64,000 nucleotides of DNA from a virus, in IMG/VR virus record IMGVR_UViG_3300033064_003457, positions 11,066 through 75,065 of that record; one strand, 5' to 3'. Position 1 is the stretch's first letter, and every line of letters begins with the position of its first letter. Shown here in pieces: positions 5,715 to 24,066 of this stretch. The position numbers and the translations under genes are program-made. The notes beneath the pieces were generated by a model. The model made no database searches, was not told where the DNA came from, and was given only the letters and a program-made list of their open reading frames with translations.

Positions 5715-6014
5715 TTAGTATACAGGACCCTGTTCAGCCTCTATATATATTCTTTTCTCAAATCTTTTTTCATAATCGTATAATTGGTTACGTAGATCAA
5801 ACATGCTATCGCTATACCCTGACGGCATTATGTACCCAGAAGACAGCACTTCAAGGCTATCTCCGGTGGACGTTAGCTTATCATATGATGTCCGTAGATC
5901 AACCAATATTTCTGACAGCGTTGAGGCTATTTTGCTAGACTCTGTTTTGCCATAGTAGGCATGGTTTCTCTTTGTCGTTGTCACTATGCTATCAAAGTTA
6001 TCTATAAAAGACAT
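5715..6014 (-). CDS. Hypothetical virion-associated protein
   Basis: 99-aa ORF in fibre region, GAGG SD. Confidence 0.65.
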   Translation of the reverse strand: MSFIDNFDSIVTTTKRNHAYYGKTESSKIASTLSEILVDLRTSYDKLTSTGDSLEVLSSGYIMPSGYSDSMFDLRNQLYDYEKRFEKRIYIEAEQGPVY

Positions 6015-6024
6015 TCTTAACCTC

Positions 6025-6648
6025 TTATTTTGAAGAACACAATACAGTTATCGCTGTGGCCACAGATAGCGTTATGTCTAGCCTATCCATACTCTTGTGT
6101 TCTATTGTTTTCGGATAAAATACTTCTCCAGCAGATGTGTCAAATACTTCTACCAGCGGATATACTCCAAGATTGTGATCAACCTGGAAAAAAGTGTTAG
6201 ATGAGTATTCTTGCGAAAAGTAACCGCTAGAAGCTGGTTGCCATGTTCCTGATCCTACAGCGTCTGCCGTAAGCACATATCCTGGAATGGCTGTGCCTCC
6301 TAGCTGGAACTCATCAGTATATAGATATTCAAATATTCCTGATGGAGCAAATACCCCATAGCTGAATATTCCAGAAACAGATTTTACATACTCTCCAGTA
6401 AAAATACCAGATCCGCCCATATCGTAAACACCAGACGGCGTATATATTCCATGAGTAAATATACCAGACGCACTATATACATCGGTGAATATTCCAGATC
6501 CTATATATGCATAGTCAAAGTATCCAGATGGAGCACTGAACGTATCGCATCCAAGGTGCCAGCATCTTACGGCCCTATCCTTCAGGTCACCATCTCGCTT
6601 TAGCATATGTTTAGAGAAATTATTTAATCTGTCTTGATACTCTGCCAC
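6025..6648 (-). CDS. Tail fibre-like protein with SG[IVY][FY] repeats
   Basis: Seven ~10-12 aa repeats; GYVLTADAVGSGTW fibre motif; C-terminal HNLGxxPxVxVFD domain typical of fibre ends. Confidence 0.65.
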   Translation of the reverse strand: MAEYQDRLNNFSKHMLKRDGDLKDRAVRCWHLGCDTFSAPSGYFDYAYIGSGIFTDVYSASGIFTHGIYTPSGVYDMGGSGIFTGEYVKSVSGIFSYGVFAPSGIFEYLYTDEFQLGGTAIPGYVLTADAVGSGTWQPASSGYFSQEYSSNTFFQVDHNLGVYPLVEVFDTSAGEVFYPKTIEHKSMDRLDITLSVATAITVLCSSK

Positions 6649-6649
6649 C

Positions 6650-8989: not shown

Positions 8990-11224
8990 TTATAGACCTC
9001 CGAAAGGATATATTTGTAATGCATACTTAGATAAAACTGGCGTATAGCTCTCTGCGTCAGCTATGGTTGTCGGTCTGCTAAGCACGGCCCTGAATCTTAC
9101 CTCATAAACAGGGTACCCTATGTCGACATAAGATAACGGGTTATCTCTGGCTTCTGGGCTTATATCAGAGTTTATATTAATTACCTCTGGTATATTGTTT
9201 ATGCCATCGGTGCTAATTGTAGTGCGATGATTTTTTGGTGATATCCTATACCACGTTGTACCATCGTCAGCCGATACATAGTACTTTATCCACTCATTTT
9301 CCGTGCCAGATAAACCAGCAGATGTATAAAATACCCTTGGTATCTGTTCATCTACAGCCAACGTTATCTTAGATATTGGCTTAGGAGAGGTGTACGGCTC
9401 AGAAACAACTTCGCTCGTTTCTGCAAACTTATAAGCATACATGTTAATGTCTCTTATCCCTATTGCGAATCTTGCTTTATCTTCTTTTGCTTTTACCCAT
9501 TGTCTTTTTATTGTCTGTGGACCAACAGTTGTTTCTGTCTTTTTTGACGAACCAAATAGTCCTCCTAACAATAAACCAGCTATCATACCTATTGGTCCAC
9601 CTACTAATCCGCCCAACATAAACCCAGCTATCCCACCAGCTGCCGCTCCAATAGTACTAGCTAACCCAGTGCTATCAGATCCTCCTATATCTATTGCGCC
9701 AGGCTCAAGATCTAGAACATCAAACCCGCAAACAAGACCTATTAGATATGGTATCTCTGCTGTCTTTTTTACTACCTGTGTTGACGTTGATGTTTTAGCT
9801 CCGCCAAAGAACTTCTTCTTTGTTGTAGTTGATGTTATTACTTGTTCTGTTTCTACCATAAGAACATCGTATGGTTTGTTGTATGACCTAGTTTGACGTA
9901 TAATAAATTTTAGACATTTTACTTTTCTTGCCGCAAATACCCATATGCCTTGTCCTGCGAATTTGAATCTGTCAGGTGCCAATGTATCTTTGACCATACT
10001 AGGTGTAAGTTCCTGGTTTGCTTCTTTTGTAAGAACAATATCATATTCATGGTCATCAAAACCTTCTAGTTCTTCAAACACTTCCCCGTCGGCAGAGGTT
10101 TGTATGGATAGTACTTCCATGTAAAGTTCTTTACCAAAGTTGTTAGGCAACAAGCTTATCCAGTTCATCTGCTCAGTTCTTTCTAGATGCACTGTAAAGC
10201 TAACAGAAAGGAACTCTCTGGCACTAGTTTCTGTTACTGGTATATAATCTTCTATAAGGTTACCATACTCTTTGGTTACTACTGTATCGCCAACTATCTC
10301 TATGTTTGGTGAGTTTATCTCATTGTTAACAAGTTCATTAAATTCAGCTGCAGTTATCTGGTCTCCACTGTATCTATTACGATATCCTTGGATTGGGTTG
10401 GTAACCATTTCTACTTCCCAGAATGTATCTGGGGTATCATCAAACATTTGCAACCTTCTTGCCATTAGAGCTTCTTCAGCTGCTCCATTCTCCCAAAGAG
10501 TTTTCCCATCTTCAGCGTATGATATGTGCCAATTTCCACCTTCTGGCCTAGACTCATTCTTGAGCCCGTAATACAATCCTTCATACCCTCCAGTCTGAGA
10601 ATGAGGGTTCCAATCTGGTATTGATTCTTGTATTCCTGTAACCTTTTCCACCAAAGGAGACCTGTTGGTGTTGCTTATTCTTTTTAGCGTTATAACTCCT
10701 TGATGTGAGATTAACTCTGCTTCTTGTGCCCCAGGAGTTATCTTACTGAAATCTATCTTACTATTATCTACAAGAGAATCTACCCCAAATATAGAATTAG
10801 ACTTTGCCCCCTCTGAATAGAATGAATAGTCTATAGATTTAGATGCTAGCTTCCTTACCTTATTAGTAAGCATTTGTTTTTCTATTTCTCCATAATTAAA
10901 GTTCTTTACCATAACAGAAGACAATGAATTTTCTTCAGCGTATCCCACACCTATATCATCATGTAATTCCTGCATAGTATCATTGTAGTCTCTTGATACT
11001 GGTGGAGATTCTTTTTTTTGATATCGTAGCTTTAATGTTGGCTTGCCAAGGTTAGAAAAAAAATCTTTGAATGCCTTATATAGCGCAGTAAATATAGAGT
11101 TTTCACTCTGAGTATCTTTTCTGTCTAGCTTATCTTTACGCTTAGCACTAATTACAGCCAGAAGATTCTCTGCTTTTTTTATATTTAATTTAGTGTCAGT
11201 TAATCTTAGGTATTCATTTCCCAT
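8990..11224 (-). CDS. Large virion structural protein (paralogue B) with internal glycine-zipper segment
   Basis: 744 aa; shared terminal motifs; GAAAGGIAGFMLGGLVGGPIGMIAGLLLGGLFG. Confidence 0.65.
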   Translation of the reverse strand: MGNEYLRLTDTKLNIKKAENLLAVISAKRKDKLDRKDTQSENSIFTALYKAFKDFFSNLGKPTLKLRYQKKESPPVSRDYNDTMQELHDDIGVGYAEENSLSSVMVKNFNYGEIEKQMLTNKVRKLASKSIDYSFYSEGAKSNSIFGVDSLVDNSKIDFSKITPGAQEAELISHQGVITLKRISNTNRSPLVEKVTGIQESIPDWNPHSQTGGYEGLYYGLKNESRPEGGNWHISYAEDGKTLWENGAAEEALMARRLQMFDDTPDTFWEVEMVTNPIQGYRNRYSGDQITAAEFNELVNNEINSPNIEIVGDTVVTKEYGNLIEDYIPVTETSAREFLSVSFTVHLERTEQMNWISLLPNNFGKELYMEVLSIQTSADGEVFEELEGFDDHEYDIVLTKEANQELTPSMVKDTLAPDRFKFAGQGIWVFAARKVKCLKFIIRQTRSYNKPYDVLMVETEQVITSTTTKKKFFGGAKTSTSTQVVKKTAEIPYLIGLVCGFDVLDLEPGAIDIGGSDSTGLASTIGAAAGGIAGFMLGGLVGGPIGMIAGLLLGGLFGSSKKTETTVGPQTIKRQWVKAKEDKARFAIGIRDINMYAYKFAETSEVVSEPYTSPKPISKITLAVDEQIPRVFYTSAGLSGTENEWIKYYVSADDGTTWYRISPKNHRTTISTDGINNIPEVININSDISPEARDNPLSYVDIGYPVYEVRFRAVLSRPTTIADAESYTPVLSKYALQIYPFGGL

Positions 11225-13527
11225 TATATTGTCCTCAATTTTAAAGTATAGTCTTTACAAATGGGTGTCTCCGATATATTTTTCCTTATATTGTTACGTA
11301 ATAGAGCTTTCAGCTGTATATAATCATTAAGGTATTTATATATTATTTTTATTTCCCTTCCGTCCAACGGAGTATTGAAATATACATTGTTCCCACTGTG
11401 AAAATATTCAAAATTTGGGTAGCTTGCGGCATTGTATGACGTAAGTGCTGGCCGTATATCATTATAATAGTCAGTTCTGTTCTCGGCAGCATGCCCATCA
11501 ACAGTTATTGTAAACATATCATAGTAAGATCCATATTCTATATCAAACTTATTAAAGCCACTCACGTTAAGCCATCTACCAGCCTCATACGAAAATCCCG
11601 GGCCAGACTTACCAGCCTGTGCTGTGTCGTTTATTACGTCGTAGTCTATATATGGATAGTGAGATAGCTCTATTTTGTATTGTCTTGTGGAGTTGTCAGT
11701 GAATGTTTCTTCAGTTTCTATTAGTGAATCATTAGCAAAGCTTACGACTACTCCGCTAGGAGTAACATCTGATGTTCCTTTTGGCTGATAAGAGATAGTA
11801 TATGATGCACTAGCGTTGTACCACCCAGAAGCAACAGCCACTGATCCATCAGAGCTAGAATATGTCCAATCAACAGCAGGCATATCCTCATCGTTCCTAT
11901 ACATGCCAACTGGGCTTGATTCTGCTGGGAACCGCAATATTCCTACCCTAGTAAGTGGGTCTATGTCTACTCTTTCTTTTGTTATATAGTGTCCAGATGG
12001 CAATATGTTCTTCCATTCATCTTTTCTTGTGGCTACCTGGTATTCTATTGACGCCCCAGACGGGAGAACTTCCACTGCGTCTAGTCTGGTTTCTAGGATA
12101 GCTCCATTGGCTTTGTATTGAGGACTTACATACTCCCCTCTCTCTAGATACCATATGTGCTTTATGTCTATATTATACGCTCCATATAGGTACTCGTATT
12201 TTCTTACCTCGATAAGTTCTTTGTCTGGATCATCCTTTTCTCGCAAAATATCCATAGACAATTCTTCTGCACCAACCTTAGACGCCTTTGTCATCTCTTG
12301 GGTGGTAGCTTTGAATATTGTCTTTGACATGCTGCTACCAGCACTATCTTCTGTCTTGCCCAACTCTTTAGTCTTTTCTTTATATTTTTCTATCTCATCA
12401 GTGTAAGCCCTGAACCCAGTTATGTAATCTATCATATCCTGTGTGGCTTGGATTGGGGCATTGGTAGATGTAGAAAGGGAATATTCCCTATCTACTATCT
12501 GTTGCCACATCTGAGCATTGTTTACTATATATTTTGGTATATTATATGTATTTATACTAGGATTTTTTTGGTTTATTACTATCCTAATCTCCTTGGCATA
12601 TATTTCTGTGAAATTAAATTCTATTGCCGATACAGATGTTTGTTCTGTTATATCTAGCTCTGACCAAGAGTCAGCGATTGCCTCTCTATATTCTATTTTG
12701 AATATCCTAAGCGGGTAGTTAGTGAATGGCAATATCTTTATATGGTTTATAGGCTCGGTCCTAAACAACCTTATTGTAACTTCGCATATGGTACCAAACT
12801 CTAAATTGCCATTATATATTTGTCGGATTGGTTCATCAGTAAGTATTACTTCGCCCCAGAATGTCTGCATGCTTTCGTCTATAGCTTTTTCCTTGCGGTG
12901 TTCCTCTGTCTCTAGCGTCCCCATTATACCGCCACCATATCTAGAGATGCTGATCTCTGCTGCAGCTAGTCCATTTATACTAAGGGTAGAATTGTCCATA
13001 CCAAATGGCAACTTCAGTGAATTTGTGTCTGTATCAATCCAAGCTTTATATGGTCCATCTTCTGCCTGATTATCATCCTTATAAAAGGTATTAAACTTTG
13101 CATCTGTTATCCCGGTCTTATTTTCTTTGATAACTTTGTATACCATTATGTCGTTTTCTACTTTGCGCAATGCCGACCTTACATCTCTTAACGTAGCGTC
13201 ATTGATGAGCTTATGTGTTTTTATGGTACGGTTTATAGTATTGTTTTGCTTGAACAAAGCCCCCAAATCAACATAGGCCTCTTCCATGGTATTATTATAA
13301 TCCACAGATGATACCTTACTATACTTTTCTGCTTTTCTAAGCTGTATCAACGGATTACCTAGAGGATTTTTAAGCTCAGCGACTAATTCCTCTAGTTTGT
13401 TTTGTAGCGTTTTATCGTCAGGAGACACACCAGCATCATCATACTTCGTTTTTAATATTTGAAGTAACCTGTCCTGTTGTATCTTAGGTATTATACTGTA
13501 ATATGATTCAATGTAAGATTTTCTCAT
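11224..13527 (-). CDS. Large virion structural protein (paralogue A)
   Basis: 767 aa; shared terminal motifs; located in tail/fibre cluster. Confidence 0.65.
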   Translation of the reverse strand: MRKSYIESYYSIIPKIQQDRLLQILKTKYDDAGVSPDDKTLQNKLEELVAELKNPLGNPLIQLRKAEKYSKVSSVDYNNTMEEAYVDLGALFKQNNTINRTIKTHKLINDATLRDVRSALRKVENDIMVYKVIKENKTGITDAKFNTFYKDDNQAEDGPYKAWIDTDTNSLKLPFGMDNSTLSINGLAAAEISISRYGGGIMGTLETEEHRKEKAIDESMQTFWGEVILTDEPIRQIYNGNLEFGTICEVTIRLFRTEPINHIKILPFTNYPLRIFKIEYREAIADSWSELDITEQTSVSAIEFNFTEIYAKEIRIVINQKNPSINTYNIPKYIVNNAQMWQQIVDREYSLSTSTNAPIQATQDMIDYITGFRAYTDEIEKYKEKTKELGKTEDSAGSSMSKTIFKATTQEMTKASKVGAEELSMDILREKDDPDKELIEVRKYEYLYGAYNIDIKHIWYLERGEYVSPQYKANGAILETRLDAVEVLPSGASIEYQVATRKDEWKNILPSGHYITKERVDIDPLTRVGILRFPAESSPVGMYRNDEDMPAVDWTYSSSDGSVAVASGWYNASASYTISYQPKGTSDVTPSGVVVSFANDSLIETEETFTDNSTRQYKIELSHYPYIDYDVINDTAQAGKSGPGFSYEAGRWLNVSGFNKFDIEYGSYYDMFTITVDGHAAENRTDYYNDIRPALTSYNAASYPNFEYFHSGNNVYFNTPLDGREIKIIYKYLNDYIQLKALLRNNIRKNISETPICKDYTLKLRTI

Positions 13528-14110
13528 TTTTCCCCAAACATTTTAATGTATTATCAATACTTAGATCTTTGCAATTAAATACCTCTATGAGTTCATCCGG
13601 CACTTGTCTCCCGTTGTCAATATACCACTTTATTCTTGTAGAAAACTTAGTATCCCAATAATGTCTATCAAGGTCATATCTTTCATTTTCTGTTATATCC
13701 GTAAACTTAGGCTTAAGGTAACTTACCGCTGAAAAAAATTCTTTTGCTTCACTAGATACCTCTCTAAGCGATCTGCTACTAATAGCAATAGACATCATAT
13801 TGTTTTCTAAATCTATCTTCGCCACAGCTATGTCTAAGTCATAATCTTCAGGCCTATACTTTTCCAGCCTAGCTATTTTTCTTTTTGTTCTTTCTATCTC
13901 TATTTTTGATTTATTTATATCATTTATGGCTATCTTCATACCTCTTATTCTCTTATGTAGTTCACGTAAAGCTTGCTTGTATTTCCCCCATTCTGTTATC
14001 CCATTATCACCACCAAGTATAAAGTTGTGTATTTGAAATTTTGAATGGTTAAGCTGAAGATCCTTAAACAATTCATTGTAATTATTATTAAATAAACTTA
14101 AATCTTTCAT
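13508..14110 (-). CDS. Coiled-coil protein, possible fibre/receptor-binding-protein chaperone
   Basis: SxFQ...YKQALRE followed by a coiled coil; ATGA-coupled to the Kelch gene. Confidence 0.45.
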   Translation of the reverse strand: MKDLSLFNNNYNELFKDLQLNHSKFQIHNFILGGDNGITEWGKYKQALRELHKRIRGMKIAINDINKSKIEIERTKRKIARLEKYRPEDYDLDIAVAKIDLENNMMSIAISSRSLREVSSEAKEFFSAVSYLKPKFTDITENERYDLDRHYWDTKFSTRIKWYIDNGRQVPDELIEVFNCKDLSIDNTLKCLGKNEKILH

Positions 14111-15222
14111 TCTAACTTAAATCCTCCTCCGCACGATCCACCACGAGCAGGTTCTGGCAAATCACTCCTAAATACCCATGAGTCAGTATAGGTTGAGTAT
14201 CTACTTACACTTTTAGAGGCACTACTAACTCCGTCATACCCACCATTGCTGAATCCATACATGCCTTTTAATCCAAAGCCGGCAGCACCCTGTTGAGATG
14301 TGGCCATAGCTGTTCTTGATAACCAAGAGTTTAGATTATTGTCATATTCATCGCAATCATCAATAACACCATTCCTGAACCCACCAGTTATATATGCTTT
14401 ACCGTTGGCTGTGAAAGAAGATGGCCTCTTCCTAGCCGGCTCAGGACAATCTGTCATAGTTCCCCAGGTATTGTTGCTTTTGTCATACCTGAAACAGCTC
14501 TTAGTATCCTCACCTCCAGAAGCTTTGCCAGCAATAACAAAGCCATAATTAGTTCCTATATTTGCACAGGCGTGAGCATAGCGCGCATACGTAATATTAG
14601 TCATGACTGACCATGAATCATCATTATTGCTGTACTCATCGCAATCATTAAATGGCCCAGCTGCTATACCACCGACAACATAGCCATTATTATTGTTTAG
14701 ACTAAAAGAATTTACATCTCTAGTCCCATGATCTAAGGCAGCCCTACTATCCCATGAGTTCAATGTGTCGTTATATCTGTCGCAAATAGCAAGATCTAGT
14801 GGGGCAGGGATAACATCTTTGTATCCACCGACCACAACACCTATAGTATAACCCAATGAAAAAGCTGACCCTAACTTTCTTGCGGGAGATGGCATATCGG
14901 TCCTACTTTCCCAGACACCGGAATCTTCATTGAATCTGTCGCAATCCTGAAGAGAGTAATCTGATCCACCACCACCATCCCATCCTCCGCCAGCGATAAA
15001 ACCCCTGTGGGCCACATCTATATATTTGAAACATTTTATTACACCACTTGCGCTTATCCTGTTGGGTAATGACTTGTCTTCGTTTGGCTCAGTCAAGATT
15101 ACCCCATAAACTAAACCATTCTTGCCTACTCTCAGTTGGTATGGGTTAGGATCATCATCAACAGCAACTGCATAGATTCCAGACGCTGTCATTGTTCTCA
15201 GGCCTATATCAACTTCAGACAT
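14107..15222 (-). CDS. Kelch-repeat beta-propeller, candidate receptor-binding protein
   Basis: About six repeats of hydrophobic-GG...CDxY...W...M/L-P-x-AR after a ~68-aa N-terminal adaptor. Confidence 0.8.
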   Translation of the reverse strand: MSEVDIGLRTMTASGIYAVAVDDDPNPYQLRVGKNGLVYGVILTEPNEDKSLPNRISASGVIKCFKYIDVAHRGFIAGGGWDGGGGSDYSLQDCDRFNEDSGVWESRTDMPSPARKLGSAFSLGYTIGVVVGGYKDVIPAPLDLAICDRYNDTLNSWDSRAALDHGTRDVNSFSLNNNNGYVVGGIAAGPFNDCDEYSNNDDSWSVMTNITYARYAHACANIGTNYGFVIAGKASGGEDTKSCFRYDKSNNTWGTMTDCPEPARKRPSSFTANGKAYITGGFRNGVIDDCDEYDNNLNSWLSRTAMATSQQGAAGFGLKGMYGFSNGGYDGVSSASKSVSRYSTYTDSWVFRSDLPEPARGGSCGGGFKLE

Positions 15223-15809
15223 TATACATCAGTCCTTATCCAAAGTAACCCGGTTGATGGCGTAACTGGATCCGAAGTTCTATTGTCTAGACACATGTTC
15301 TTCATTTGCATGTTTTGGATGTCTAGATCATCAGCTGTTATTAATTCTACGTCTCCTCCAGACTCTTGCCACAACAACCTGGAATCTACATATATCTTAG
15401 GCACAACATCTTGATCGTTGCTGGGGCCATCGTATACCCTCAATAGGTCAAAATAACCATTTCCCATTGGAATTGATGACGAACCAAAGCCAGGAACGCC
15501 ACTTGCACTTGATAGCATATCTCCACTTAGTGTTAACTCAACAGAACCATTGTTCCATGTAAGATACGTTACTCCGCCTAAATCTCCACCGTCATTATAC
15601 TGTAGTTGCATATCTGAACCGCCAGGAGTAGCACCAACACCAGTAAGACTACTTCCATCACCGTAATATGTCTTAGCATAGATTTTATTGCCAACTTCTA
15701 GGTTATCAAAAACACCAGATGCGAATGCAGTGCTTAATGTACCAACGTCGTGTAGACCACTAGCACTAGGCACAACTGCTTCATATGTTGTTATGTAGTC
15801 ATATCTCAT
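15222..15809 (-). CDS. Tail fibre segment protein
   Basis: YYGDGSSLTG and PGGSDMQLQYNDGG fibre motifs; C-terminal NRTSDPxxPxxGxxW. Confidence 0.7.
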   Translation of the reverse strand: MRYDYITTYEAVVPSASGLHDVGTLSTAFASGVFDNLEVGNKIYAKTYYGDGSSLTGVGATPGGSDMQLQYNDGGDLGGVTYLTWNNGSVELTLSGDMLSSASGVPGFGSSSIPMGNGYFDLLRVYDGPSNDQDVVPKIYVDSRLLWQESGGDVELITADDLDIQNMQMKNMCLDNRTSDPVTPSTGLLWIRTDV

Positions 15810-15810
15810 A

Positions 15811-17835
15811 TTATATATAGTTTATTATTGGGTATTCTCCAAGAGCCATATGCTTTAATATCTTTTCCCTAATTTCATCTTCCTCGAAGCTACCACCATT
15901 TGATTGCAATAATACTTTTGGCACATTTATAACTAATACTCCATTGGAAGGAAACGCCTTGCCGTCAAAATAACCAACATCCCAATAGAATTGTGCTTCT
16001 GGTTGTATTTCTTCAACATTTGCCAGGTCTTGGATGGCAGACTTGCTTAATCCGCCTCCCCTAGTACGAACATCAGTAACTTCTACATCGGCAACCTTAC
16101 AGTGTGGCCCTACCGAAACGCTACCTAACCTAAAATCATAAGAACCAGATGGTGTTCCAGTAAAATTATGATACAACGATTCGCTACATACAACTTCATT
16201 GGCATCTATGTCAATATATGGTCTTAAAAAAACATGTGCTACTGTACCAGAGGCGTACATTCCATAACTATGTCCCGGAGTAGGATTAAGATCTAGCTCA
16301 AGATATGGTAACGATTCACCTGTAGGAAAAGGATACCCACTACCAACAAAACCGTCATACTCATAGTAGTCTGATTCATATGCATAGTCAACTACTATAT
16401 CATCCCTATGATTTAATATCTGAGCTACCTTTACTGTTCCATTGTAAACATCCCAATCAAGTATGCTGTTCTGTGATAAGGAACTGTCATTTACTTTAAT
16501 ATGCATATAGCTTGATGGAGGAAACCCTGGATCGTCACTATTGTATAATACATCGCTAGGATCTATATATACAGGAGTTCTGTATAGCTGTATTTCCTGC
16601 TGACCTAATAGGTCTGGCCTTTCAGATATTACATCTTTGCGCGGTTTACCATGGGTCATGCTCCATAATTGTGTATTGTACTCTGGAACAGCGTATTCCC
16701 ACATGGTACCTTGTCCTGATGGCACAGCTGACCCATCAGCTAGCATTCTTCTTCTGAACCTTCCATTCTTAACCTGTAAGTACCAGTTATCATCTATGTC
16801 TGCATTGTTAGGCTTTTTTAAATATATAGAGTTATACGCTCTTGGCTTAAGATAATAATACGATCTTATGGCAGTGAATGTGGCCCTATCACCATTTTTT
16901 AAATAATTATCTGAATTAACATCTACACTTACTCCAGGGATGCCTGTTATCGTTGTTCCTATAGTAAAATTTGTTTGGCTACCCCAAGTGTCAGCAGTAG
17001 ACGATGTAAGGTAATCATTGGCTGGAGCACCATCTCTAGTTTTATCTCTCTTAATACTAAATGTAGTTGTACTGGTGGCATCTAGAGTATATGTTACAGT
17101 AACACCAAGCGCATATTCTTTTACTATTGCTAGGTCTGGCTTAATTGTGGTTGGAGCAGCCTCAAAGGAAATACCAATAGAATTGATAAGCTCAGACAGT
17201 GTAGGGACTGGTGGAACAACACAGCTCCATAGTCCATCTCCCAATTCTAACAATGAGTATTGCTCAGTGGCTATCAGGGGGTTACCTAATACAAAAAACT
17301 GCCTAGCGTTAAGTGACTCATGCCAGCTAGGATAGATTGTACTACCGTCTATATTGCATCTATTGTATCTTACTTTATAAATCACATATTCTGTATTTTT
17401 GAAATCTGTTAATACTTCTATCTTGTACACATTCTTCATCTGTCTTTCAGCGCGAACTATGTAGTTTATGCCCTTCAATATATTTTCATTTTGATCTGTA
17501 ATATATACCTGTTTTGTAGGATTCTCTCCATATGTATAATGGTAGAATCTACCTATATGGTTAAAGTATAGAGGTGCAGCATCCTTGTCATTCGTTGATG
17601 GAGTTGTCACATTCGTAACGTCAAAATCAATCACAGTTAACGCTGGCATGTGTCCACCGGAATCAACATAGGACTCCACCAAAGAAGAATCTAGCTGGGC
17701 TACATTCTCTTCCCACTCATAAGAATGGTCTACTAATGATATATTTCTTTCTGGGTCAAGCCCAGGCACGTCTATCATGGCCAAAGCAAACCCTGATGGT
17801 GAAATGTGTCGTCCTACTCTAAAGGTTACAGACAT
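15811..17835 (-). CDS. Baseplate/tail structural protein
   Basis: 674 aa, beta-rich; C-terminal DVRTRGGG...YWDVG; located in baseplate cluster. Confidence 0.6.
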   Translation of the reverse strand: MSVTFRVGRHISPSGFALAMIDVPGLDPERNISLVDHSYEWEENVAQLDSSLVESYVDSGGHMPALTVIDFDVTNVTTPSTNDKDAAPLYFNHIGRFYHYTYGENPTKQVYITDQNENILKGINYIVRAERQMKNVYKIEVLTDFKNTEYVIYKVRYNRCNIDGSTIYPSWHESLNARQFFVLGNPLIATEQYSLLELGDGLWSCVVPPVPTLSELINSIGISFEAAPTTIKPDLAIVKEYALGVTVTYTLDATSTTTFSIKRDKTRDGAPANDYLTSSTADTWGSQTNFTIGTTITGIPGVSVDVNSDNYLKNGDRATFTAIRSYYYLKPRAYNSIYLKKPNNADIDDNWYLQVKNGRFRRRMLADGSAVPSGQGTMWEYAVPEYNTQLWSMTHGKPRKDVISERPDLLGQQEIQLYRTPVYIDPSDVLYNSDDPGFPPSSYMHIKVNDSSLSQNSILDWDVYNGTVKVAQILNHRDDIVVDYAYESDYYEYDGFVGSGYPFPTGESLPYLELDLNPTPGHSYGMYASGTVAHVFLRPYIDIDANEVVCSESLYHNFTGTPSGSYDFRLGSVSVGPHCKVADVEVTDVRTRGGGLSKSAIQDLANVEEIQPEAQFYWDVGYFDGKAFPSNGVLVINVPKVLLQSNGGSFEEDEIREKILKHMALGEYPIINYI

Positions 17836-18156: not shown

Positions 18157-19026
18157 CTATGTTAGATAATCTAACATGTCTAATAAAGATCTATCTAATA
18201 CAAATGGCTCAGAGGTGCTATAGTACTGTAGTATTTGTACTATATCATATATACCAGATGCATCTTGATAATAAGCTTTTATGTTTTGTACTCCAGTATT
18301 GTATTTTGTAGCTAAGTACTTTATTCTTGCTATGCCACCAGAGTCAGTGTCTTTTATTACCTCGATAGGGTATCCACTGCCATCTGCAGCCTGTACTGTC
18401 CCATCTGCTGATTCAAAGTACCCTAACTCTGTATAGTCCCCAACGTCTTGTATCTCAAAAACTATAGGTGCCTCAGCCACCCTATCATAGTTGGCATCAT
18501 AAAGTGTAGCTGTCAGCTCTGCTCTTCTATAGCCATCTGCCCATAATGAGCTTTGTGATGTAGCTAAGTATAGCGCATCTGGAGAACTTATAGTAGAGTA
18601 ATGGATGAACCCACCCTCCCTTATTTCTCCTCTGGCCGGATGAATGTCTATAGTATCTAATGTGTAATACCCACTAGGTCCTGCTTCATATTCTATAAAA
18701 ACATTTTCAGTTAACGTTTTGTTAAAAACCAGTTTACCACTAGAGTCAGGATGCAATGCAAACTCATCTAAAGAGGTATCGTACACGCCAGCTGGTGTTA
18801 GCGTGAAATCACCAAAACCAACCTTGGTATATTTACCACTGCCACCTATCCTAGCCCAAGGATCTTGAGCTGTAGTTGTTTCATTCCCTGATGATGTGAC
18901 AACTATTGGTGCATTTTGAGTAACAGCATGGTCTAGCGCACAGTAAGACACACCTGTGCTTGCTGACTCATAAGCCTTTTGAGAGTATAGGTAATATTCG
19001 TTATATAGAAATCCGCTAGCTGTCAT
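18157..19026 (-). CDS. Virion protein with invasin/Big_1-like Ig domain
   Basis: LWADG...LTATLYDAN...TDSGGIA pattern. Confidence 0.6.
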   Translation of the reverse strand: MTASGFLYNEYYLYSQKAYESASTGVSYCALDHAVTQNAPIVVTSSGNETTTAQDPWARIGGSGKYTKVGFGDFTLTPAGVYDTSLDEFALHPDSSGKLVFNKTLTENVFIEYEAGPSGYYTLDTIDIHPARGEIREGGFIHYSTISSPDALYLATSQSSLWADGYRRAELTATLYDANYDRVAEAPIVFEIQDVGDYTELGYFESADGTVQAADGSGYPIEVIKDTDSGGIARIKYLATKYNTGVQNIKAYYQDASGIYDIVQILQYYSTSEPFVLDRSLLDMLDYLT

Positions 19027-19034: not shown

Positions 19035-20339
19035 TTATAGGTTAAATACCCCTGATGGATAAGAAGAATAAAAATAACCAGAATGTATATCTAGATACCA
19101 AGAAAAACCACTTATTCCAGGGTTCCAAACTTCTCTTGCTTGTTCCTTCACCCATAAATCATCGTTGTCCCCAATTCCAGGACTTTGCCACTTTTCATAT
19201 AGACCACTAGCATCAGGATCCCAAATATGAGGCAAATAAGAGTATCCTATTCCTTCTTCATCTACGCTATCCCAATACCCCTCATCTGCTATTATGTTGC
19301 CCCAGAATATAGGGTTTCTAGAATACACTTCAGATACATATGTCTCTAGTGGTGTATTTATAGCATTGTTATCTTCATTTAATAAATTTCCAGAATAATT
19401 TGGGTTAGCTAAATCATCTAATTTCTCTATAGTTATATCACTGTAGGTTAACCCAAGCTCTCTAGCTATCCCATATTTTAAGCCAGCATATGTTGCACTA
19501 GCCGGATTCTGATATACGTCTGATAGCCTATCTTTGTAATCACTATTGTTTTCTCCATAGTTTCTTTCAAGCCCTAGCAATAGTCCTAGCTCATCAAAAT
19601 AGTTCCATACGTTAAATGCCTCTGTGGTAGCAACTATAAGATTGATTGTAGCGCTTACGATATCGCTCACAATGCCCGACGTAGATCCAACTACGGATGA
19701 TATTGCTTCTATATAGTTATCTCCACTTACTAGTGGCATATTGTACTGCCATATTACCCCAGAAATTCCATTAGGGTAGCTAGCTTCGCTCCAATCTCCG
19801 TCATTATTTCGTATAAAAACATGCAATGATGTCTCTTTAGTGCCAGTTATTAATTGCCAGAAATCATCAGCAGGAGAAGTAACTGTATCTATTGTAGGCG
19901 GGTAAGGACTACTTACAAATAGATTAAACTCATAAACATCAGACCAACTAGAATAGTTTAGTCCGTCATATGATCTTATTCTAGCATAATGAAGTCCCTC
20001 GCGAGAGAGTTGGCTTTCGGTTGGCAATAGATATGTCTGGTCCTCAGCCGAAAATCCATCTAAGTCTATGTCTGGATTAGAAAAATCATTAGCCCCAAAG
20101 TTTATTTGCAGCTGATATGTTATTACATCTGAATCAGAAGCAGATATGTTCCATGTAAATGTAGGGTCAACCCAGCTTATAGTATATGTGCCACTCACTA
20201 ACTCTGCACTTTGTATCGCTAAAGATGTCGGCGTTGGCGCTGGATAATCAATTCCATACTTAGCTCCAGAGCCATAGCCTACATTGTTATATTTGTTTGT
20301 AGATGTGCTGTAATATCCGTAAGAATAAGACCGAGCCAT
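19035..20339 (-). CDS. Baseplate wedge-like protein with FN3/Ig-like N-terminal domains
   Basis: PTFTW...YQLQI...YARIRSYDG...WS (FN3-like); FDELGLLLGLER...DYKDRL (wedge-like). Confidence 0.6.
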   Translation of the reverse strand: MARSYSYGYYSTSTNKYNNVGYGSGAKYGIDYPAPTPTSLAIQSAELVSGTYTISWVDPTFTWNISASDSDVITYQLQINFGANDFSNPDIDLDGFSAEDQTYLLPTESQLSREGLHYARIRSYDGLNYSSWSDVYEFNLFVSSPYPPTIDTVTSPADDFWQLITGTKETSLHVFIRNNDGDWSEASYPNGISGVIWQYNMPLVSGDNYIEAISSVVGSTSGIVSDIVSATINLIVATTEAFNVWNYFDELGLLLGLERNYGENNSDYKDRLSDVYQNPASATYAGLKYGIARELGLTYSDITIEKLDDLANPNYSGNLLNEDNNAINTPLETYVSEVYSRNPIFWGNIIADEGYWDSVDEEGIGYSYLPHIWDPDASGLYEKWQSPGIGDNDDLWVKEQAREVWNPGISGFSWYLDIHSGYFYSSYPSGVFNL

Positions 20340-20350
20340 TATCTAACCCC

Positions 20351-21511
20351 TTATGTTATGCTTACCACGATTCCACTTTCTACTTTAATTGTTTTTCCGT
20401 CTGTAGTTGTAAAGCTACCATTAGCCCCTGTACTGGCCCCAGTAGTATACTGAGCAGCATACATTGTATCAAAACTACCAGTATCAAAAGTAACTGCTTG
20501 GCTACCAACTGTTCTTAATCCGCTAGCCTCAGGCATGATATTGCCACTAGCAGTAGCACTACCTTGTAGGAATATATCATTGCTTAACTCAAACTGATCA
20601 TCAGTATTGTTCCACCTTAGCCATTCACCATCAAACGTGTCATTATAGAAATAATACCATGAGTCAGAGTTAGGACCATCAGAATTTACTCCCATCCAGA
20701 CACCACTACAAGATATTTCTTCTGCCCATACCCTGTTTGTGTCCACCAATTCTCTAACGCTGATACTACCAGGGACATCGAGGTCTCCAACAAGCAGATC
20801 ATTGATATCAACCCCATGAGGATTGGTATCTGACTGGGCTACCCCACCGCGAGAATCTATATGCCCTTGTACGCTGGCAGGGGTACACGAACCAGGTGGA
20901 GTAACAAATATTGAATCTGCAAAATGTGCAGCATTATGATTGTCTTGATGAGTCTTAATGTCTAGTATCGTAGGCGCTCCAGACGCAAGCCAGTTATCAC
21001 CCATTATATCGTTGCTTATTCCATCTGGCACTATTGATCTGGACGATATCCTGTGTCCATCAAATCCACTCGCAGCTATTCTCTGCTCCATGGTGTTTAA
21101 TCTACCACCTACGGTAGGCCAGCCAGCCTTAAGGTTTATCCCTAATTCTGTTTCTACATTTTCTATCTCTGTTTGGAGTTCATTAACGTGTTCAGCCATT
21201 ATGTCATCACCAAGAGTAGTATACCTAGCCTCTATGGCAGAACCTAAATCCGTCGAATAAAAAGTTACTTTACCATCATCGTAATCTACTAAAAATTGTC
21301 CTGCTGCGGTTGGAGTAGAAAGTACCTCTGTCCATTCAGCGCCGCCAGATGCAAAGACATGTGTTGTATCAACATCCTTTGGTACATGGTCAAGATACAT
21401 TGTGTACGGCGATGATAATGGTACGTTAAAATACTCTCCACTTACATACCACCCGCTTGCACTCTTATCTATTTTAGTAGTGTAAGTTGGAATGTCTGCG
21501 GGATAACCCAT
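20351..21511 (-). CDS. Tail fibre/baseplate-attached structural protein
   Basis: IMAEHVNELQ coiled coil, NPHGV motif, C-terminal GSFTTTDGKTIKVESGIVVSI. Confidence 0.65.
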   Translation of the reverse strand: MGYPADIPTYTTKIDKSASGWYVSGEYFNVPLSSPYTMYLDHVPKDVDTTHVFASGGAEWTEVLSTPTAAGQFLVDYDDGKVTFYSTDLGSAIEARYTTLGDDIMAEHVNELQTEIENVETELGINLKAGWPTVGGRLNTMEQRIAASGFDGHRISSRSIVPDGISNDIMGDNWLASGAPTILDIKTHQDNHNAAHFADSIFVTPPGSCTPASVQGHIDSRGGVAQSDTNPHGVDINDLLVGDLDVPGSISVRELVDTNRVWAEEISCSGVWMGVNSDGPNSDSWYYFYNDTFDGEWLRWNNTDDQFELSNDIFLQGSATASGNIMPEASGLRTVGSQAVTFDTGSFDTMYAAQYTTGASTGANGSFTTTDGKTIKVESGIVVSIT

Positions 21512-21528
21512 TGCTTATTACCTCCTAA

Positions 21529-22503
21529 TTATGTGTTAGATATAAAAACACCCGACTGATAATTTTCTCTAAAATACACATATCGATTATCTTTGTCTAG
21601 TATAAAATAATCATGTCTTGGCTCCAAGCCATATATCCTATTTTTACCAGTATCACATAACCATATATTTTTTTCTTCGTCAATTATTATACCAGAAGGT
21701 TCATGCTCAATACCATCGGTTATTTCGAATACAGCTAGCAAATCTAACGTATCATTTCGTGGTATTTGAGTTCTTGTGCTTGTGATATTTATAAAATACT
21801 TATTGTCTAAATGTCCTACCCACCATAGCATGTGGTCAGAATAAAACATGTCTATTGGATACCCAGACCCAGTTGGAGGGTATGACTCATAGTCCCCCAT
21901 TGATTCTCTGTCTTGTTTTCTTATTCCACCATCAGCATAACACCAAGAAATATCATGCTCAACTTTCCATATGTCTATATACTTTTGACCTAAATCTATT
22001 ATACCGCTTGGTTTTGTATGCCATTCTATACTATCTACATTGGAAGCATAGTCGCCAGAACTCATAACTTCTAGCCTGGTAGGCAATACATCATAATAAA
22101 ACTCTTCTAAGTTATTTATTTCTTTCAGCCATATGTTGCTTACACCACTAGGTTCACATCCTGATGGAGCAGTTATGCACCTAAGTCCCGAAGCAGAAGC
22201 GTCAGTTAGGTTTATGTCGGAGCCTAACTTAGATCTATAGATAACATCTATCTCATCAACTGGGGCTATATCTAAGAACTTACCCTTAAACACGTCATCC
22301 ATCTTTTCTTCCAGATTTTCCAGATCTATCGCTGCCGATGAAAAAAACTGTTGGCCCCTAGACCTATTGTTGCTTCTTATATGCATCCATGGAGGAAACA
22401 TATTAGACAGCTTTTGTGTAACATGGCTTCTATAGTAACCACTAGCAGCTATGTTGTCTCCTGGGTTAACATATGTTCTATCACAACTGATTGGATAAGT
22501 CAT
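21529..22503 (-). CDS. Baseplate structural protein
   Basis: Follows baseplate J-like gene; 324 aa. Confidence 0.55.
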   Translation of the reverse strand: MTYPISCDRTYVNPGDNIAASGYYRSHVTQKLSNMFPPWMHIRSNNRSRGQQFFSSAAIDLENLEEKMDDVFKGKFLDIAPVDEIDVIYRSKLGSDINLTDASASGLRCITAPSGCEPSGVSNIWLKEINNLEEFYYDVLPTRLEVMSSGDYASNVDSIEWHTKPSGIIDLGQKYIDIWKVEHDISWCYADGGIRKQDRESMGDYESYPPTGSGYPIDMFYSDHMLWWVGHLDNKYFINITSTRTQIPRNDTLDLLAVFEITDGIEHEPSGIIIDEEKNIWLCDTGKNRIYGLEPRHDYFILDKDNRYVYFRENYQSGVFISNT

Positions 22504-22511
22504 TTGATCTC

Positions 22512-23645
22512 CTATAATATTCTAATGGCTTCTGACGAGTCTGGATTAGGGTAGAACATCTCATCCCAATATATCTCTACATTTCCTAAGAAATGAGGTT
22601 GCTCTCTAAAATAATAACAGCTCACTACATGGTCTTTTATCTTTGTGTCTACATCCATTATCTGTTGTCTAAGTTCATTCAGGATGAATTCTCCACCTAA
22701 AGGTATGTTGACTATATACTTTTCTACAGCTGTTCTTACATTGCCCCTTATGTTTGTTTTTTCAAAATCTGTTGTATTGCTTAAAAACATTAATTTGATA
22801 TCTAGATTCACTGGAACAATTGTAGGAGATATGGCGGTACCCTTTACTCCTAGCGCATGAGCGCTGTCTATAGCGTTCTGTACATTCCCTACTAAGGCGC
22901 TATTAGCAATACCCTCCACAGGTATAACTATAAGATCATATGACCCTATCCCTCTAGCGTAGGGCTTTATAACAACATCAGATACTCCAGGAACTGATAA
23001 CGCTGCCAATCTCACTGCTATCTCGTTAGCTTTCTCTGCTGCCAATGTTGCGTTAGATAATCTATACCTATAGTTTGAATCTGCTTCTGTGTCAGTACCA
23101 CTAGCTATGGCCTTGTTGTTGGTTGTATATACACCATCCACCCCAAGGTCTGTTACTATCAGTGTATTTTTGCCAACATTATATTTAGTACCCTTATCTT
23201 CTGCAATTATAGGAACATAGACTTCAGTGTCACCGACTGAAAATGCAGTATTTTCTGAAACATAAAACGTTATTACACCATCACTCGTTCTGACGTATGT
23301 GTTGGCTGGTATTATGTCCGTTGGTATTCTATCATGGAGTGTACCTGCAGTAACATAGAAACGCTGTGTATTGTCTGCCGCCCCTAGCTCTGCTTTGGCC
23401 GATACCAACCTTTGCATATTAAACATTTGTCCTATAAGATCCAAGAAGTATCCTTCTGCAGTAGAAAGAAAGCTCATGGCCATGTTAATGTCTAATACAT
23501 CATAATATTCTGCTATATTCTTATTTATAATTTCTATCAGAGATCTAGTCACTCCACCTATACTGGTATTAGTTATATCAGTATTAGTTTCTAGAAATGA
23601 TAAAGCATCTTGTACTAATTCTCCATATTCTTTTTTAAATAGCAT
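22512..23645 (-). CDS. Baseplate wedge protein, J/gp47-like
   Basis: TAEGYFLDLIG, GTKYNVG, GTDTEADSNYRYRL, ALSVPGV motifs; start placed at ATG 23645. Confidence 0.9.
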   Translation of the reverse strand: MLFKKEYGELVQDALSFLETNTDITNTSIGGVTRSLIEIINKNIAEYYDVLDINMAMSFLSTAEGYFLDLIGQMFNMQRLVSAKAELGAADNTQRFYVTAGTLHDRIPTDIIPANTYVRTSDGVITFYVSENTAFSVGDTEVYVPIIAEDKGTKYNVGKNTLIVTDLGVDGVYTTNNKAIASGTDTEADSNYRYRLSNATLAAEKANEIAVRLAALSVPGVSDVVIKPYARGIGSYDLIVIPVEGIANSALVGNVQNAIDSAHALGVKGTAISPTIVPVNLDIKLMFLSNTTDFEKTNIRGNVRTAVEKYIVNIPLGGEFILNELRQQIMDVDTKIKDHVVSCYYFREQPHFLGNVEIYWDEMFYPNPDSSEAIRIL

Positions 23646-23646
23646 T

Positions 23647-24066
23647 TTATTCTCCTGGTATATTGGTAACACCCTCTACCATGTCTAACACATAATCAGG
23701 TGTAACATTGAGTTGCTCTATCCCGTCATTAACAAAAATATAAAAAACTATTTTTTCCAGCGCCACCGGAACTCCCCTAACATATAGATCCATATTTCTA
23801 ACCATGCCATCAGCTGTTAACGAATGTACTATCTTGGATTCGCCAACCTTAGCAGTTTCTTTTGTGTTAGGTTCTCCGATTAACTCATCTATGTCTGCAC
23901 CTACATTTGGATGCGGCTCAAACTCACCATAGCTTGTTCTTACCCTAAAGGTTATATCTTGCTTAAGCACTCCTGATGCTGCTATAAGAGATAGATCACT
24001 CCCTGAGGCCAAAGATAGATCTCCGCTTGGTGTAAGACATATATCTATTTTGTCATATAGACCCAT
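23647..24066 (-). CDS. Baseplate wedge gp25/W-like sheath initiator
   Basis: GDL...LKQDIxxRVRT..GE..PHP.VGA..LIG pattern; directly before J-like gene. Confidence 0.75.
   Translation of the reverse strand: MGLYDKIDICLTPSGDLSLASGSDLSLIAASGVLKQDITFRVRTSYGEFEPHPNVGADIDELIGEPNTKETAKVGESKIVHSLTADGMVRNMDLYVRGVPVALEKIVFYIFVNDGIEQLNVTPDYVLDMVEGVTNIPGE

What the first reader, a model, noticed from the sequence alone, without database searches (positions are those of the whole stretch)
5715..24066. Pervasive [A/P]-S-G motif across outer virion proteins: a possible modification sequon
Seen (manual count, approximate): about 50 ASG/PSG tripeptides in baseplate, fibre, neck, sheath and head-accessory proteins. 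Examples: 6 in 20351..21511, 6 in 21529..22503, 4 in 6025..6648, 3 in the first 35 aa of 23647..24066, and 4 in 49577..50248. They are usually followed by a hydrophobic or aromatic residue (ASGIY, PSGII, ASGWY, PSGVF). I found none in terminase, portal, protease or AAA ATPase (~2200 aa combined). The motif recurs in unrelated folds, so it is not one repeat domain. Inference: a recognition site for surface-wide Ser modification of the particle, such as O-glycosylation or another adduct. The enzyme could be encoded elsewhere in the genome or, more speculatively, by the adjacent radical SAM cluster.
Basis: partly seen in the sequence, partly recalled or inferred. Interest (0 to 1): 0.78.

Follow-up and report, generated by a model that had tools for sequence, protein, structure and literature searches.

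The report
Ala/Pro-Ser-Gly tag on phage baseplate proteins
The outer tail proteins of this uncultured large phage and its whole clade carry the tripeptide Ala/Pro-Ser-Gly about ten times too often, at conserved surface-type turns, and the excess goes with a phage-encoded sugar-building gene island, so it is probably a sugar-attachment signal, though no chemistry shows this.

Summary
[A/P]SG occurs 40 times in 5715-24066, against 4.1 expected from per-protein shuffles (z about 18). ASG and PSG are the two most enriched tripeptides. The signal is at protein level, Ser-specific and directional.

The motif is conserved: 85% of sites keep it in a 57%-identical relative, against 23-48% for control tripeptides. 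It is clade-wide: 419 observed against 45 expected over 31 metagenomic loci. The sites lie at beta-turns just before strands.

The adjacent radical SAM enzymes are an unlikely writer. Throughout the clade they travel with their own Cys-rich-tail protein, and unrelated motif-bearing phages share no radical SAM family.

The syntenic relative has a 16.5-kb glycan island with at least 9 glycosyltransferases, including an adjacent GT4 pair that appears conserved across the clade. The window's contig breaks off just before that position. Three of four unrelated large phages with the same GT4 pair have PSG/ASG as their top proteome-wide tripeptides. Three complete outgroup genomes without these GT families have no excess (two) or a mild one (one).

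Best reading (about 0.5): an acceptor sequon for phage-encoded virion O-glycosylation. Main rival (about 0.3): an unmodified turn motif. This scan noted the same tag earlier on other phage DNA. There is no chemical evidence.

The parts
5715..6014 (-). 99-aa virion-module protein, 1 motif (PSG at residue 64), conserved in G001
6025..6648 (-). 207-aa protein with a tandem ~10-aa xSG[IV][FY] repeat; 4 [AP]SG
11224..13527 (-). 767-aa virion structural protein (phrog_20243); 4 motifs, all in residues 489-590; 3 conserved in G001
14107..15222 (-). 371-aa protein, 3 motifs including an N-terminal ASG at residue 13; no orthologue in G001
15222..15809 (-). 195-aa protein, 3 ASG (residues 16, 30, 102)
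15811..17835 (-). 674-aa protein, 4 motifs, all 4 conserved in G001
18157..19026 (-). 289-aa protein, 3 motifs (6 in the G001 orthologue)
19035..20339 (-). 434-aa virion structural protein (phrog_21059), 2 motifs, both conserved; one is 5 residues from the C-terminus
20351..21511 (-). 386-aa fibre-like protein, 6 ASG; 5 kept in 11-12 of 13 homologues; variable-copy C-terminal repeat in which each unit carries an ASG
21529..22503 (-). 324-aa baseplate protein with an NHL-like beta-propeller fragment; 6 motifs, whose columns are invariant or at least 90% conserved in 47 homologues (the Gly of the sixth is 83%)
22512..23672 (-). Baseplate J-like wedge protein; 1 ASG, not conserved (VSG in most homologues)
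23647..24066 (-). gp25-like baseplate wedge protein; 3 motifs in the N-terminal hairpins. The first aligns with P-D-G or D-D-G in distant relatives
39755..41113 (-). Tail sheath; 2 motifs (residues 25, 182), both conserved in G001
41138..42085 (-). 315-aa virion structural protein; 2 C-terminal motifs, conserved, with a P/A swap at one site
42684..44060 (-). 458-aa Ig-like (Big_5) domain protein; 2 conserved motifs
47201..47983 (-). 260-aa head-region protein; 2 conserved ASG
49577..50248 (-). 223-aa protein with 4 motifs; no orthologue in G001

Best explanation
[A/P]-S-G-(hydrophobic) is a short acceptor signal (sequon). It sits at exposed beta-turns of the peripheral baseplate, fibre, sheath and accessory proteins. 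A phage-encoded glycosylation system attaches a sugar to its serine hydroxyl in the cytoplasm during virion assembly. Shown: the motif excess, its Ser specificity, its directionality, its strong purifying selection and recurrent gain, its position at turns, the glycan island in the syntenic relative, and the recurrence of the same motif in unrelated phages that share an adjacent GT4 pair. Inferred: that the window's own phage carries the island beyond the contig end, that the GT4 pair or another island enzyme acts on protein and not on DNA or lipid, and that the serine is modified at all.
For: 1. Excess: 40 vs 4.1 (z about 18) in the flagged span, and the top two tripeptides. It is position-specific and Ser-only; the reversed tripeptide is not enriched.
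2. Selection: 34 of 40 sites are retained in G001 at 57% identity. Controls are 23% for all tripeptides, 28% for xxG, 30% for [AP]xG, 48% for x[DN]G and 40% for SG at other xSG sites. In 47 homologues of 21529..22503 the motif columns are invariant or near-invariant, Thr is the commonest replacement for Ser at two of the sites, A and P swap freely, and about 43 extra occurrences arise at new columns against about 7.5 expected.
3. Clade-wide: 419 vs 45.1 over 31 metagenomic loci.
4. Accessibility: sites lie at strand starts or hairpin turns in the confident parts of two AF2 models.
5. Enzymes: G001 has a 16.5-kb island at 23.8-40.1 kb. It holds 7 GT2 (one fused to a methyltransferase and a GT17-like domain), a 4,6-dehydratase/epimerase, 2 DegT aminotransferases, an acyltransferase, 2 further methyltransferase-domain proteins (one CmcI-like) and an adjacent GT4 pair. 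It lies next to a 2360-aa (G-Y-S)n collagen-like fibre. The G000 contig ends 151 nt after the primase-helicase gene, which precedes the island in G001.
6. The GT4 is 55-82% identical across about 65 clusters and shares contigs with the baseplate family. Its best solved relative is the chlorovirus GT B736L, E 2e-18.
7. Independent lineage: G002, G003 and G005 share no structural proteins with this phage but share the GT4 pair. PSG and/or ASG are their top proteome-wide tripeptides, with the same flanking signature.
8. Outgroups: KLEB27-3 and 0305phi8-36 have no GT2, GT1 or GT4 and have 0-1 motifs.
Against: There is no chemical evidence. No GT is present in the window's own 75-kb contig (36% complete), so its island is only inferred. 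G004 carries the GT4 pair but shows no excess (49 vs 40.7). MTATph1 shows a 3x ASG excess without any GT2, GT1 or GT4. The motif is a canonical type-I turn sequence, and at two sites an NHL-blade start. It is mildly favoured in phage proteins generally (O/E 1.7). The capsid, the tube and the two large fibre-like proteins lack it. Phage GT islands can instead glycosylate DNA (Pyle et al. 2024, cited in PMC12619734). The comparison contigs all carry remote GT4 relatives, so they are not clean negatives. I did not firmly establish that the motif-rich ORFs of G002, G003 and G005 are virion proteins.
Confidence: 0.5

Rival explanations
1. Purely structural. [A/P]-S-G is this lineage's preferred sequence for a type-I beta-turn or G1 bulge that starts a beta-strand. 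It is conserved for folding or assembly of beta-rich baseplate proteins, and the serine is not modified.
For: Sites sit at strand starts and hairpin turns. Two sites match the NHL blade P-x-G-hydrophobic-hydrophobic-hydrophobic-D. The first gp25-like site aligns with P-D-G or D-D-G in distant relatives. [AP]DG is also mildly enriched, 10 vs 3.5. General phage baseline O/E is 1.7. G004 and MTATph1 break the GT correlation.
Against: The sites are retained far better than other turn sequences in the same alignments: 85% against 30% for [AP]xG and 48% for x[DN]G. Ser is replaced mainly by Thr, and never by Asp or Asn at the well-conserved sites. The density is about 6x the phage baseline, and the motif is absent from related Bacillus phages with homologous folds. 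The same excess appears in unrelated phages that share a GT4 pair. A neutral 'dialect' cannot arise across dozens of non-homologous proteins.
Confidence: 0.3
2. A docking or recognition motif for a trans-acting factor other than a glycosyltransferase. Candidates are an assembly chaperone, a decoration protein, or a different Ser modification (phosphorylation, acylation, phosphoglycerol) made by a host or unrecognised phage enzyme.
For: Hydroxyl-specific conservation and A/P equivalence suggest recognition by one common reader. Several conserved structural-module proteins have no recognisable domain.
Against: No kinase, acyltransferase or chaperone candidate was found. The only enzyme set that recurs with the motif across unrelated phages is the GT4 pair.
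Confidence: 0.12
3. The adjacent radical SAM/SPASM enzymes modify the [A/P]SG sites, for example by cross-linking or by Ser/Gly C-H chemistry.
For: Four rSAM/SPASM paralogues lie inside the fibre module. Related cassettes lie between motif-rich genes in G001 and in L019, L027-L029, L034 and L042. G004 lacks both rSAM genes and the motif.
Against: Where the flanks are complete, a cassette is paired with a 160-185-aa protein ending in a Cys-rich tail (CXXX or CxC repeats), the standard substrate type for PapB/CXXX-repeat-family enzymes. rSAM types differ between the window and G001. The complete genome G003 has the motif excess but only an NrdG-like rSAM. The rSAMs of G002 and G005 are not homologous to the clade's. 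L021 and L022 keep the excess with no cassette at that position.
Confidence: 0.03

Closest known systems
Mycobacteriophage virion glycosylation by phage-encoded glycosyltransferases (Freeman et al. 2023, Cell Host Microbe; known here through its citation in PMC12619734)
   Same: A tailed phage encodes its own glycosyltransferases near its structural genes and is proposed to O-glycosylate its own virion proteins in the cytoplasm.
   Different: There the glycans sit at the C-termini of the capsid and tail-tube subunits. Here the capsid and tube carry no motif, and the candidate sites are internal turns in a dozen baseplate, fibre and sheath proteins defined by a strict tripeptide. Modification is demonstrated there and not here.
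Autonomous glycosylation of chloroviruses (PBCV-1 / NY-2A; B736L, A064R; PMC4691112, PMC5408694)
   Same: The best solved relative of the clade's GT4 is the chlorovirus enzyme B736L (E 2e-18). G001 also has a multidomain GT-methyltransferase-GT protein, reminiscent of the GT + O-methyltransferase architecture of A064R. It also has a virus-encoded sugar-nucleotide pathway.
   Different: Chloroviruses N-glycosylate the major capsid protein at atypical sites. They are eukaryotic viruses, and no [A/P]SG sequon is known there.
GtfA/GtfB O-GlcNAcylation of serine-rich-repeat adhesins in Gram-positive cocci
   Same: A cytoplasmic pair of adjacent GT-B/GT4-type proteins that O-glycosylates serines in Ala/Ser-rich short motifs (from general knowledge).
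   Different: Sequence similarity is only at generic GT4 level (GtfA 4pqg E 1.6e-6; 5e9t 8.5e-4). The acceptors there are long disordered Ser-rich repeats, not isolated turns in folded proteins.
Canonical type-I beta-turn P-[D/N/S]-G and the NHL-repeat blade start P-x-G-hydrophobic-hydrophobic-hydrophobic-D
   Same: The position in the structure and the A/P and G preferences match. Distant homologues have P-D-G at one equivalent site.
   Different: Ordinary turns tolerate D/N/S/G interchange and are retained at 30-48% in these alignments. These sites are retained at 85%, with Ser replaced mainly by Thr where the motif is kept.

Membership tests
Phage-encoded virion O-glycosylation (mycobacteriophage type) | The phage genome encodes glycosyltransferases associated with the structural genes | tested here: inconclusive
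   Met in the syntenic relative G001: 9 GT genes at 23.8-40.1 kb, next to the fibre genes. The GT4 is co-encoded with the baseplate family on at least 3 clade contigs. No GT is present in the window's own contig, which ends just before the expected position.
Phage-encoded virion O-glycosylation (mycobacteriophage type) | Glycans demonstrated on virion proteins | not testable with these tools
   Needs mass spectrometry or glycan staining of virions. No isolate exists.
Phage-encoded virion O-glycosylation (mycobacteriophage type) | Acceptor sites at the C-termini of capsid and tail-tube subunits | tested here: not met
   The capsid fragments (44647..45357, 46550..47200) and the tube-like paralogues (38290..39729) have no motif. 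The sites are internal turns of baseplate, fibre and sheath proteins.
GtfA/GtfB serine-rich-repeat glycosylation system | Specific homology of the GT pair to GtfA and GtfB | tested here: not met
   The profile of the GT4 hits GtfA structures only at E 1.6e-6 and 8.5e-4, well below B736L, MshA-like and PimB-like enzymes. The partner GT4 does not hit them at all.
GtfA/GtfB serine-rich-repeat glycosylation system | The acceptor is a long Ser-rich repeat region | tested here: not met
   The acceptor candidates are isolated tripeptides in folded domains. The (G-Y-S)n fibre of G001 is the only repeat-type candidate.
Radical SAM/SPASM (RiPP-like) modification of the motif | The same maturase family co-occurs with the motif across lineages | tested here: not met
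   The rSAMs of G002, G003 and G005 are not homologous to the clade's. G003 has only an NrdG-like rSAM. MTATph1 has no SPASM homologue.
Radical SAM/SPASM (RiPP-like) modification of the motif | The motif is the substrate element next to the maturase | tested here: not met
   Cassettes are paired with a Cys-rich-tail protein (window 5139..5699; G001 g66284; L027, L029, L034). The rSAM proteins resemble PapB/CXXX-repeat/DynA-type enzymes.
Ordinary type-I beta-turn / NHL blade-start motif | Located at a turn immediately preceding a beta-strand | tested here: met
   AF2: motifs 104, 165 and 269 of 21529..22503 precede strands, and motifs 18 and 54 of 20351..21511 sit at a strand start and a hairpin turn. 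The fold is NHL-like.
Ordinary type-I beta-turn / NHL blade-start motif | Evolves like other turn sequences (D/N/S/G interchange, moderate conservation) | tested here: not met
   85% retention against 30-48% for [AP]xG and x[DN]G. Thr is the commonest replacement for Ser at the two sites where it varies while the motif is kept.

The most novel reading that the evidence does not exclude
[A/P]-S-G-(hydrophobic) is a portable protein O-glycosylation sequon read by a conserved, horizontally mobile pair of phage GT4 enzymes. Unrelated large phages that acquire the pair then evolve the tag convergently at exposed turns of their outer tail proteins. This would be a defined 'glyco-code' for coating phage tails. 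It could be used to predict which virion proteins are exposed, and to engineer glycan shields.
Probability: 0.35. Interest if true: 0.85.

Novelty: new variant of a known kind. Interest (0 to 1): 0.66.

Why it matters
Virion glycosylation by phage-encoded enzymes has been demonstrated only for a few mycobacteriophages, and no short sequon is known for it. A strict, conserved tripeptide that marks the outer baseplate proteins of a whole clade, and that recurs in unrelated phages sharing one GT4 pair, would make the question directly testable: co-express one small tagged protein with the enzymes. It would give a sequence-only predictor of glycosylated, exposed virion proteins. It would also bear on phage stability, host recognition and immune or defence evasion. 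If the serines prove unmodified, the case is still an unusually clean example of lineage-wide selection on a three-residue turn motif.

Tried and rejected
- **DNA-level motif:** rejected. The Ser codons are mixed.
- **Composition artefact:** rejected by shuffles, by per-position tests and by the reversed-tripeptide control.
- **One hidden repeat domain:** rejected. There is no BLAST paralogy among the motif-bearing proteins. Local repeats do exist in 6025..6648 and at the C-terminus of 20351..21511.
- **Avoidance of deamidation-prone N-G/D-G:** rejected. DG O/E is 1.26 and [AP][DN]G is also dense.
- **Radical SAM writer:** rejected.
- **Recalled resemblances** (MIO cofactor tripeptide Ala-Ser-Gly of ammonia-lyases, glycyl-radical motif [S/A/C]-G-Y, prepilin-type cleavage after Gly, prohead-protease sites): considered from memory and set aside. 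Reasons: P replaces A freely, there is no upstream Arg, no hydrophobic helix follows, and most sites are internal strand starts. None of these was tested further.
- **GtfA/GtfB membership:** not supported.
- **Modifying enzymes among conserved unknown proteins of the window and inside the cassettes:** none found.
- **Prophage copies in bacterial genomes to identify a host:** none found.
- **Neighbourhoods (+/-10 kb) of GT4 homologues:** uninformative for the hypothesis because they hold sugar genes, not virion genes. They were used only as a baseline.
- **Baseplate_J in G002-G005:** none found, so their motif-rich ORFs could not be placed that way.
- **Tools and models:** The second AF2 model was poor (pLDDT 56).
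Full report
**What the window is.** The window is almost entirely one minus-strand run of phage genes. It belongs to a single 75,065-bp viral contig that CheckV rates 36% complete. PHROG and Pfam searches identify tail sheath, portal, large terminase, a protease-like protein, an AAA ATPase, a Baseplate-J wedge protein, a gp25-like wedge protein and many 'virion structural proteins'. The nearest cultured relatives are distant. They are the Bacillus jumbo phages 0305phi8-36 and KLEB27-3 and Moorella phage MTATph1, at 30-38% identity in Baseplate J.

**The observation.** The flagged span holds 40 [A/P]SG in 6093 aa. Within-protein shuffles give 4.15 +/- 2.0, with a maximum of 12 in 2000 shuffles, so z is about 18. 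ASG (23 vs 2.5) and PSG (17 vs 1.65) are the two most enriched tripeptides by many orders of magnitude.

- The serine codons are mixed, so the signal is in the protein and not the DNA.
- Each position is specific. Among [AP]xG only Ser is enriched (Thr 3 vs 3.4), among [AP]Sx only Gly, and among xSG only Ala and Pro.
- The reversed tripeptide GS[AP] has identical composition and is not enriched in any genome examined.
- After Gly comes a hydrophobic residue (58% vs 33% background), then a hydrophobic, often aromatic, one.
- Sites are over-represented in the first 35 residues: 21% of sites against 9% of sequence.
- A baseline from 70 unrelated viral loci gives O/E 1.7 (maximum 3.9). The tripeptide is therefore mildly favoured in phage proteins generally, and the true excess here is about six-fold.
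- The motif-bearing proteins are not BLAST-detectable paralogues of one another.
- The distribution is selective, not 'surface-wide'. Peripheral baseplate and fibre-like proteins, the sheath, an Ig-like protein and two head-region proteins carry the motif. The capsid fragments, the tube-like proteins, the tape-measure/hub proteins (baseline level, not conserved) and two 750-aa fibre-like proteins do not.

**Selection.** A 113.8-kb IMG/VR contig, G001, is syntenic with the window at about 57% amino-acid identity. In 16 orthologue alignments, 34 of the window's 40 motifs stand in the same column in G001. That is 85% retention. In the same alignments the controls are 23% for all tripeptides, 28% for G-ending tripeptides, 30% for [AP]xG with x not Ser, 48% for [DN]G dipeptides and 40% for SG at other xSG sites.

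The family of 21529..22503 has 47 members down to 39% identity. In it the motif columns are invariant or at least 90% conserved, apart from the Gly of the last motif (39 of 47). At the two sites where Ser varies while the motif is kept, Thr is the commonest replacement. Each member carries 4-9 motifs against 0.1-0.3 expected. About 43 further occurrences arise at non-core columns against roughly 7.5 expected, which indicates recurrent gain. Other families behave the same way, with A and P interchanging at one site.

Over 31 independent metagenomic loci of the clade there are 419 motifs against 45 expected. The two Bacillus relatives have 0 and 1 motifs against 6.4 and 4.5 expected. In KLEB27-3 none of 82 SG dipeptides follows A or P. 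MTATph1 has a mild 3x excess.

**Structure.** An AlphaFold model of 21529..22503 (pLDDT 76, with a confident C-terminal domain) is an NHL/Pizza-like beta-propeller fragment. Three motifs lie exactly at strand starts, and two of these match the NHL blade start. The other three are in low-confidence loops. In the one confident domain of the 20351..21511 model, one motif precedes the first strand and one forms a hairpin turn. In the gp25-like protein the first motif aligns with P-D-G or D-D-G in distant relatives. The motif therefore occupies canonical type-I-turn positions. N-G and D-G are not avoided, so chemical stability of the turns is not the explanation.

**The radical SAM idea.** Four rSAM/SPASM paralogues lie to the left of the flagged span. 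The best-scoring one resembles DynA, YhhB, anSME and PapB-type peptide maturases. In G001 and in several metagenomic loci, rSAM/SPASM plus B12-rSAM cassettes sit at a different place, between the orthologues of 19035..20339 and 20351..21511. Where the flanks are complete, each cassette is accompanied by a 160-185-aa protein ending in a Cys-rich tail. That tail is a CXXX repeat in window ORF 5139..5699 and CxC repeats in G001 and others. This is the expected substrate type. Motif-bearing phages outside the clade share no rSAM family with it, and the complete genome G003 has only an NrdG-like rSAM. I therefore reject the rSAM link. The cassette is an interesting but separate feature, already flagged by other notes of this scan.

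**Glycosyltransferases.** Notes of this scan reported the same [A/P]SG excess in other uncultured phages, tied to a pair of sugar-transferase genes. I treated that as a lead and tested it.

- G001 carries a 16.5-kb glycan island. It holds seven GT2 proteins (one fused to a methyltransferase and a GT17-like domain), an NDP-sugar 4,6-dehydratase/epimerase, two DegT aminotransferases, a hexapeptide acyltransferase, two further methyltransferase-domain proteins (one CmcI-like) and an adjacent pair of GT4 proteins.
- The island lies between a 2360-aa proline-free collagen-like fibre built of G-Y-S and G-I-S triplets and the nuclease, primase-helicase and fibre genes.
- The window's contig ends 151 nt beyond its primase-helicase gene, which is where the island side begins in G001. 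Its lack of GT genes is therefore uninformative.
- The GT4 is 55-82% identical over about 65 clusters. It shares contig counts, sources and longest-contig lengths with members of the baseplate family (171,340 bp; 52,349 bp; 113,821 bp), so it is co-encoded in at least three clade genomes.
- Its best solved relative is the chlorovirus glycosyltransferase B736L (E 2e-18). GtfA matches only at generic GT4 level.
- The three complete outgroup genomes have no GT2, GT1 or GT4 of this family.

**An independent lineage.** Four large IMG/VR phages (G002-G005, 156-185 kb, three of them complete) carry the same adjacent GT4 pair at 33-40% identity. They share essentially no structural proteins with the window. 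In a blind proteome-wide ranking of all tripeptides:

- G002 has PSG (60 vs 12.1) and ASG (48 vs 20.8) on top.
- G005 has ASG (103 vs 34.5) and PSG (55 vs 20.3) on top.
- G003 has PSG on top (32 vs 8.7).
- G004 shows nothing (49 vs 40.7), even with GC3-aware gene calls.

The excess copies in G002, G003 and G005 have the same hydrophobic flanks as here, and G004's copies do not. They are concentrated in runs of very large ORFs. One of these carries a ConA-like lectin domain, but I could not firmly show that the ORFs are virion proteins. Six contigs with only remote GT4 relatives give ratios of 1.2-2.8. One of them, G009, instead has VSG at 71 vs 17.5.

**Verdict.** The motif is under much stronger and more hydroxyl-specific constraint than ordinary turns. 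It is gained recurrently. It co-occurs with a conserved phage GT4 pair and glycan island, both within the clade and in an unrelated lineage.

The best-supported reading is an acceptor sequon for phage-encoded virion O-glycosylation (confidence about 0.5). This works like mycobacteriophage and chlorovirus self-glycosylation but differs in site type and target proteins. The main rival is an unmodified structural turn motif (about 0.3). G004 and MTATph1 are genuine exceptions, the window's own island is only inferred, and nothing is shown chemically.

Published work knows phage virion glycosylation (Freeman et al. 2023, via PMC12619734) but, to my knowledge, no such sequon. This scan has noted the same tag before on other phage DNA.

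Noticed in passing
window 1-5699 and contig upstream (L001:9647-11648); G001 64935-68187; L019, L027, L028, L029, L034, L042: Cassettes of rSAM/SPASM enzymes, often with a B12-rSAM, occur across the clade. They are paired with a 160-185-aa protein ending in a Cys-rich tail (a CXXX repeat here, CxC repeats elsewhere). They sit at different places in the baseplate/fibre module in different phages. G001's tail protein also has three 'ELR...HxH' repeats.
   Followed up: partly
G001 16264-23346 (L012/L013): A 2360-aa proline-free collagen-like fibre with about 300 G-Y-S and 100 G-I-S triplets and a fibre-type C-terminal domain. It lies directly beside the glycan island, and its repeat presents Ser-Gly-hydrophobic throughout.
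   Followed up: partly
L001:152-3883 (contig upstream of the window): The primase-helicase (1243 aa) contains an intein with a LAGLIDADG domain. The G001 orthologue (818 aa) lacks it. One GT4 homologue (P0096, 788 aa) also carries an intein with LAGLIDADG.
   Followed up: no
L002 (KLEB27-3) and L004 (0305phi8-36): The structural modules of the two Bacillus jumbo phages are depleted in [A/P]SG: 0 vs 6.4 and 1 vs 4.5 expected. None of the 82 SG dipeptides of KLEB27-3 follows A or P.
   Followed up: no
G009 (L192-L197): A 116-kb viral contig with a remote GT4 relative has VSG (71 vs 17.5) and SGL as its top tripeptides. This may be a different Ser-Gly 'dialect'.
   Followed up: no
G002 154226-155341 and 171463-172575 (L145, L146): Two paralogous 370-aa radical SAM proteins with an N-terminal Cys-rich domain. 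One lies between motif-rich large ORFs. They are not homologous to this clade's SPASM enzymes.
   Followed up: no
window 20351-21511 and alignment A2: The C-terminal fibre repeat (I-T-A-S-G-N-x-x-P-x-A-S-G-x-R-x-V-G-S/T...) varies in copy number between homologues. Each inserted unit brings its own ASG.
   Followed up: partly
window 6025-6648 vs G001 47801-53002: The 207-aa xSGIF-repeat protein is replaced in G001 by a 1733-aa protein that shares only about 47 residues with it. This suggests a swapped distal fibre or receptor-binding module.
   Followed up: no
G004 (L157-L166): A complete 185-kb, 65% GC phage has the GT4 pair but no [A/P]SG excess and no radical SAM gene. SSS is its top tripeptide (62 vs 34).
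   Followed up: partly
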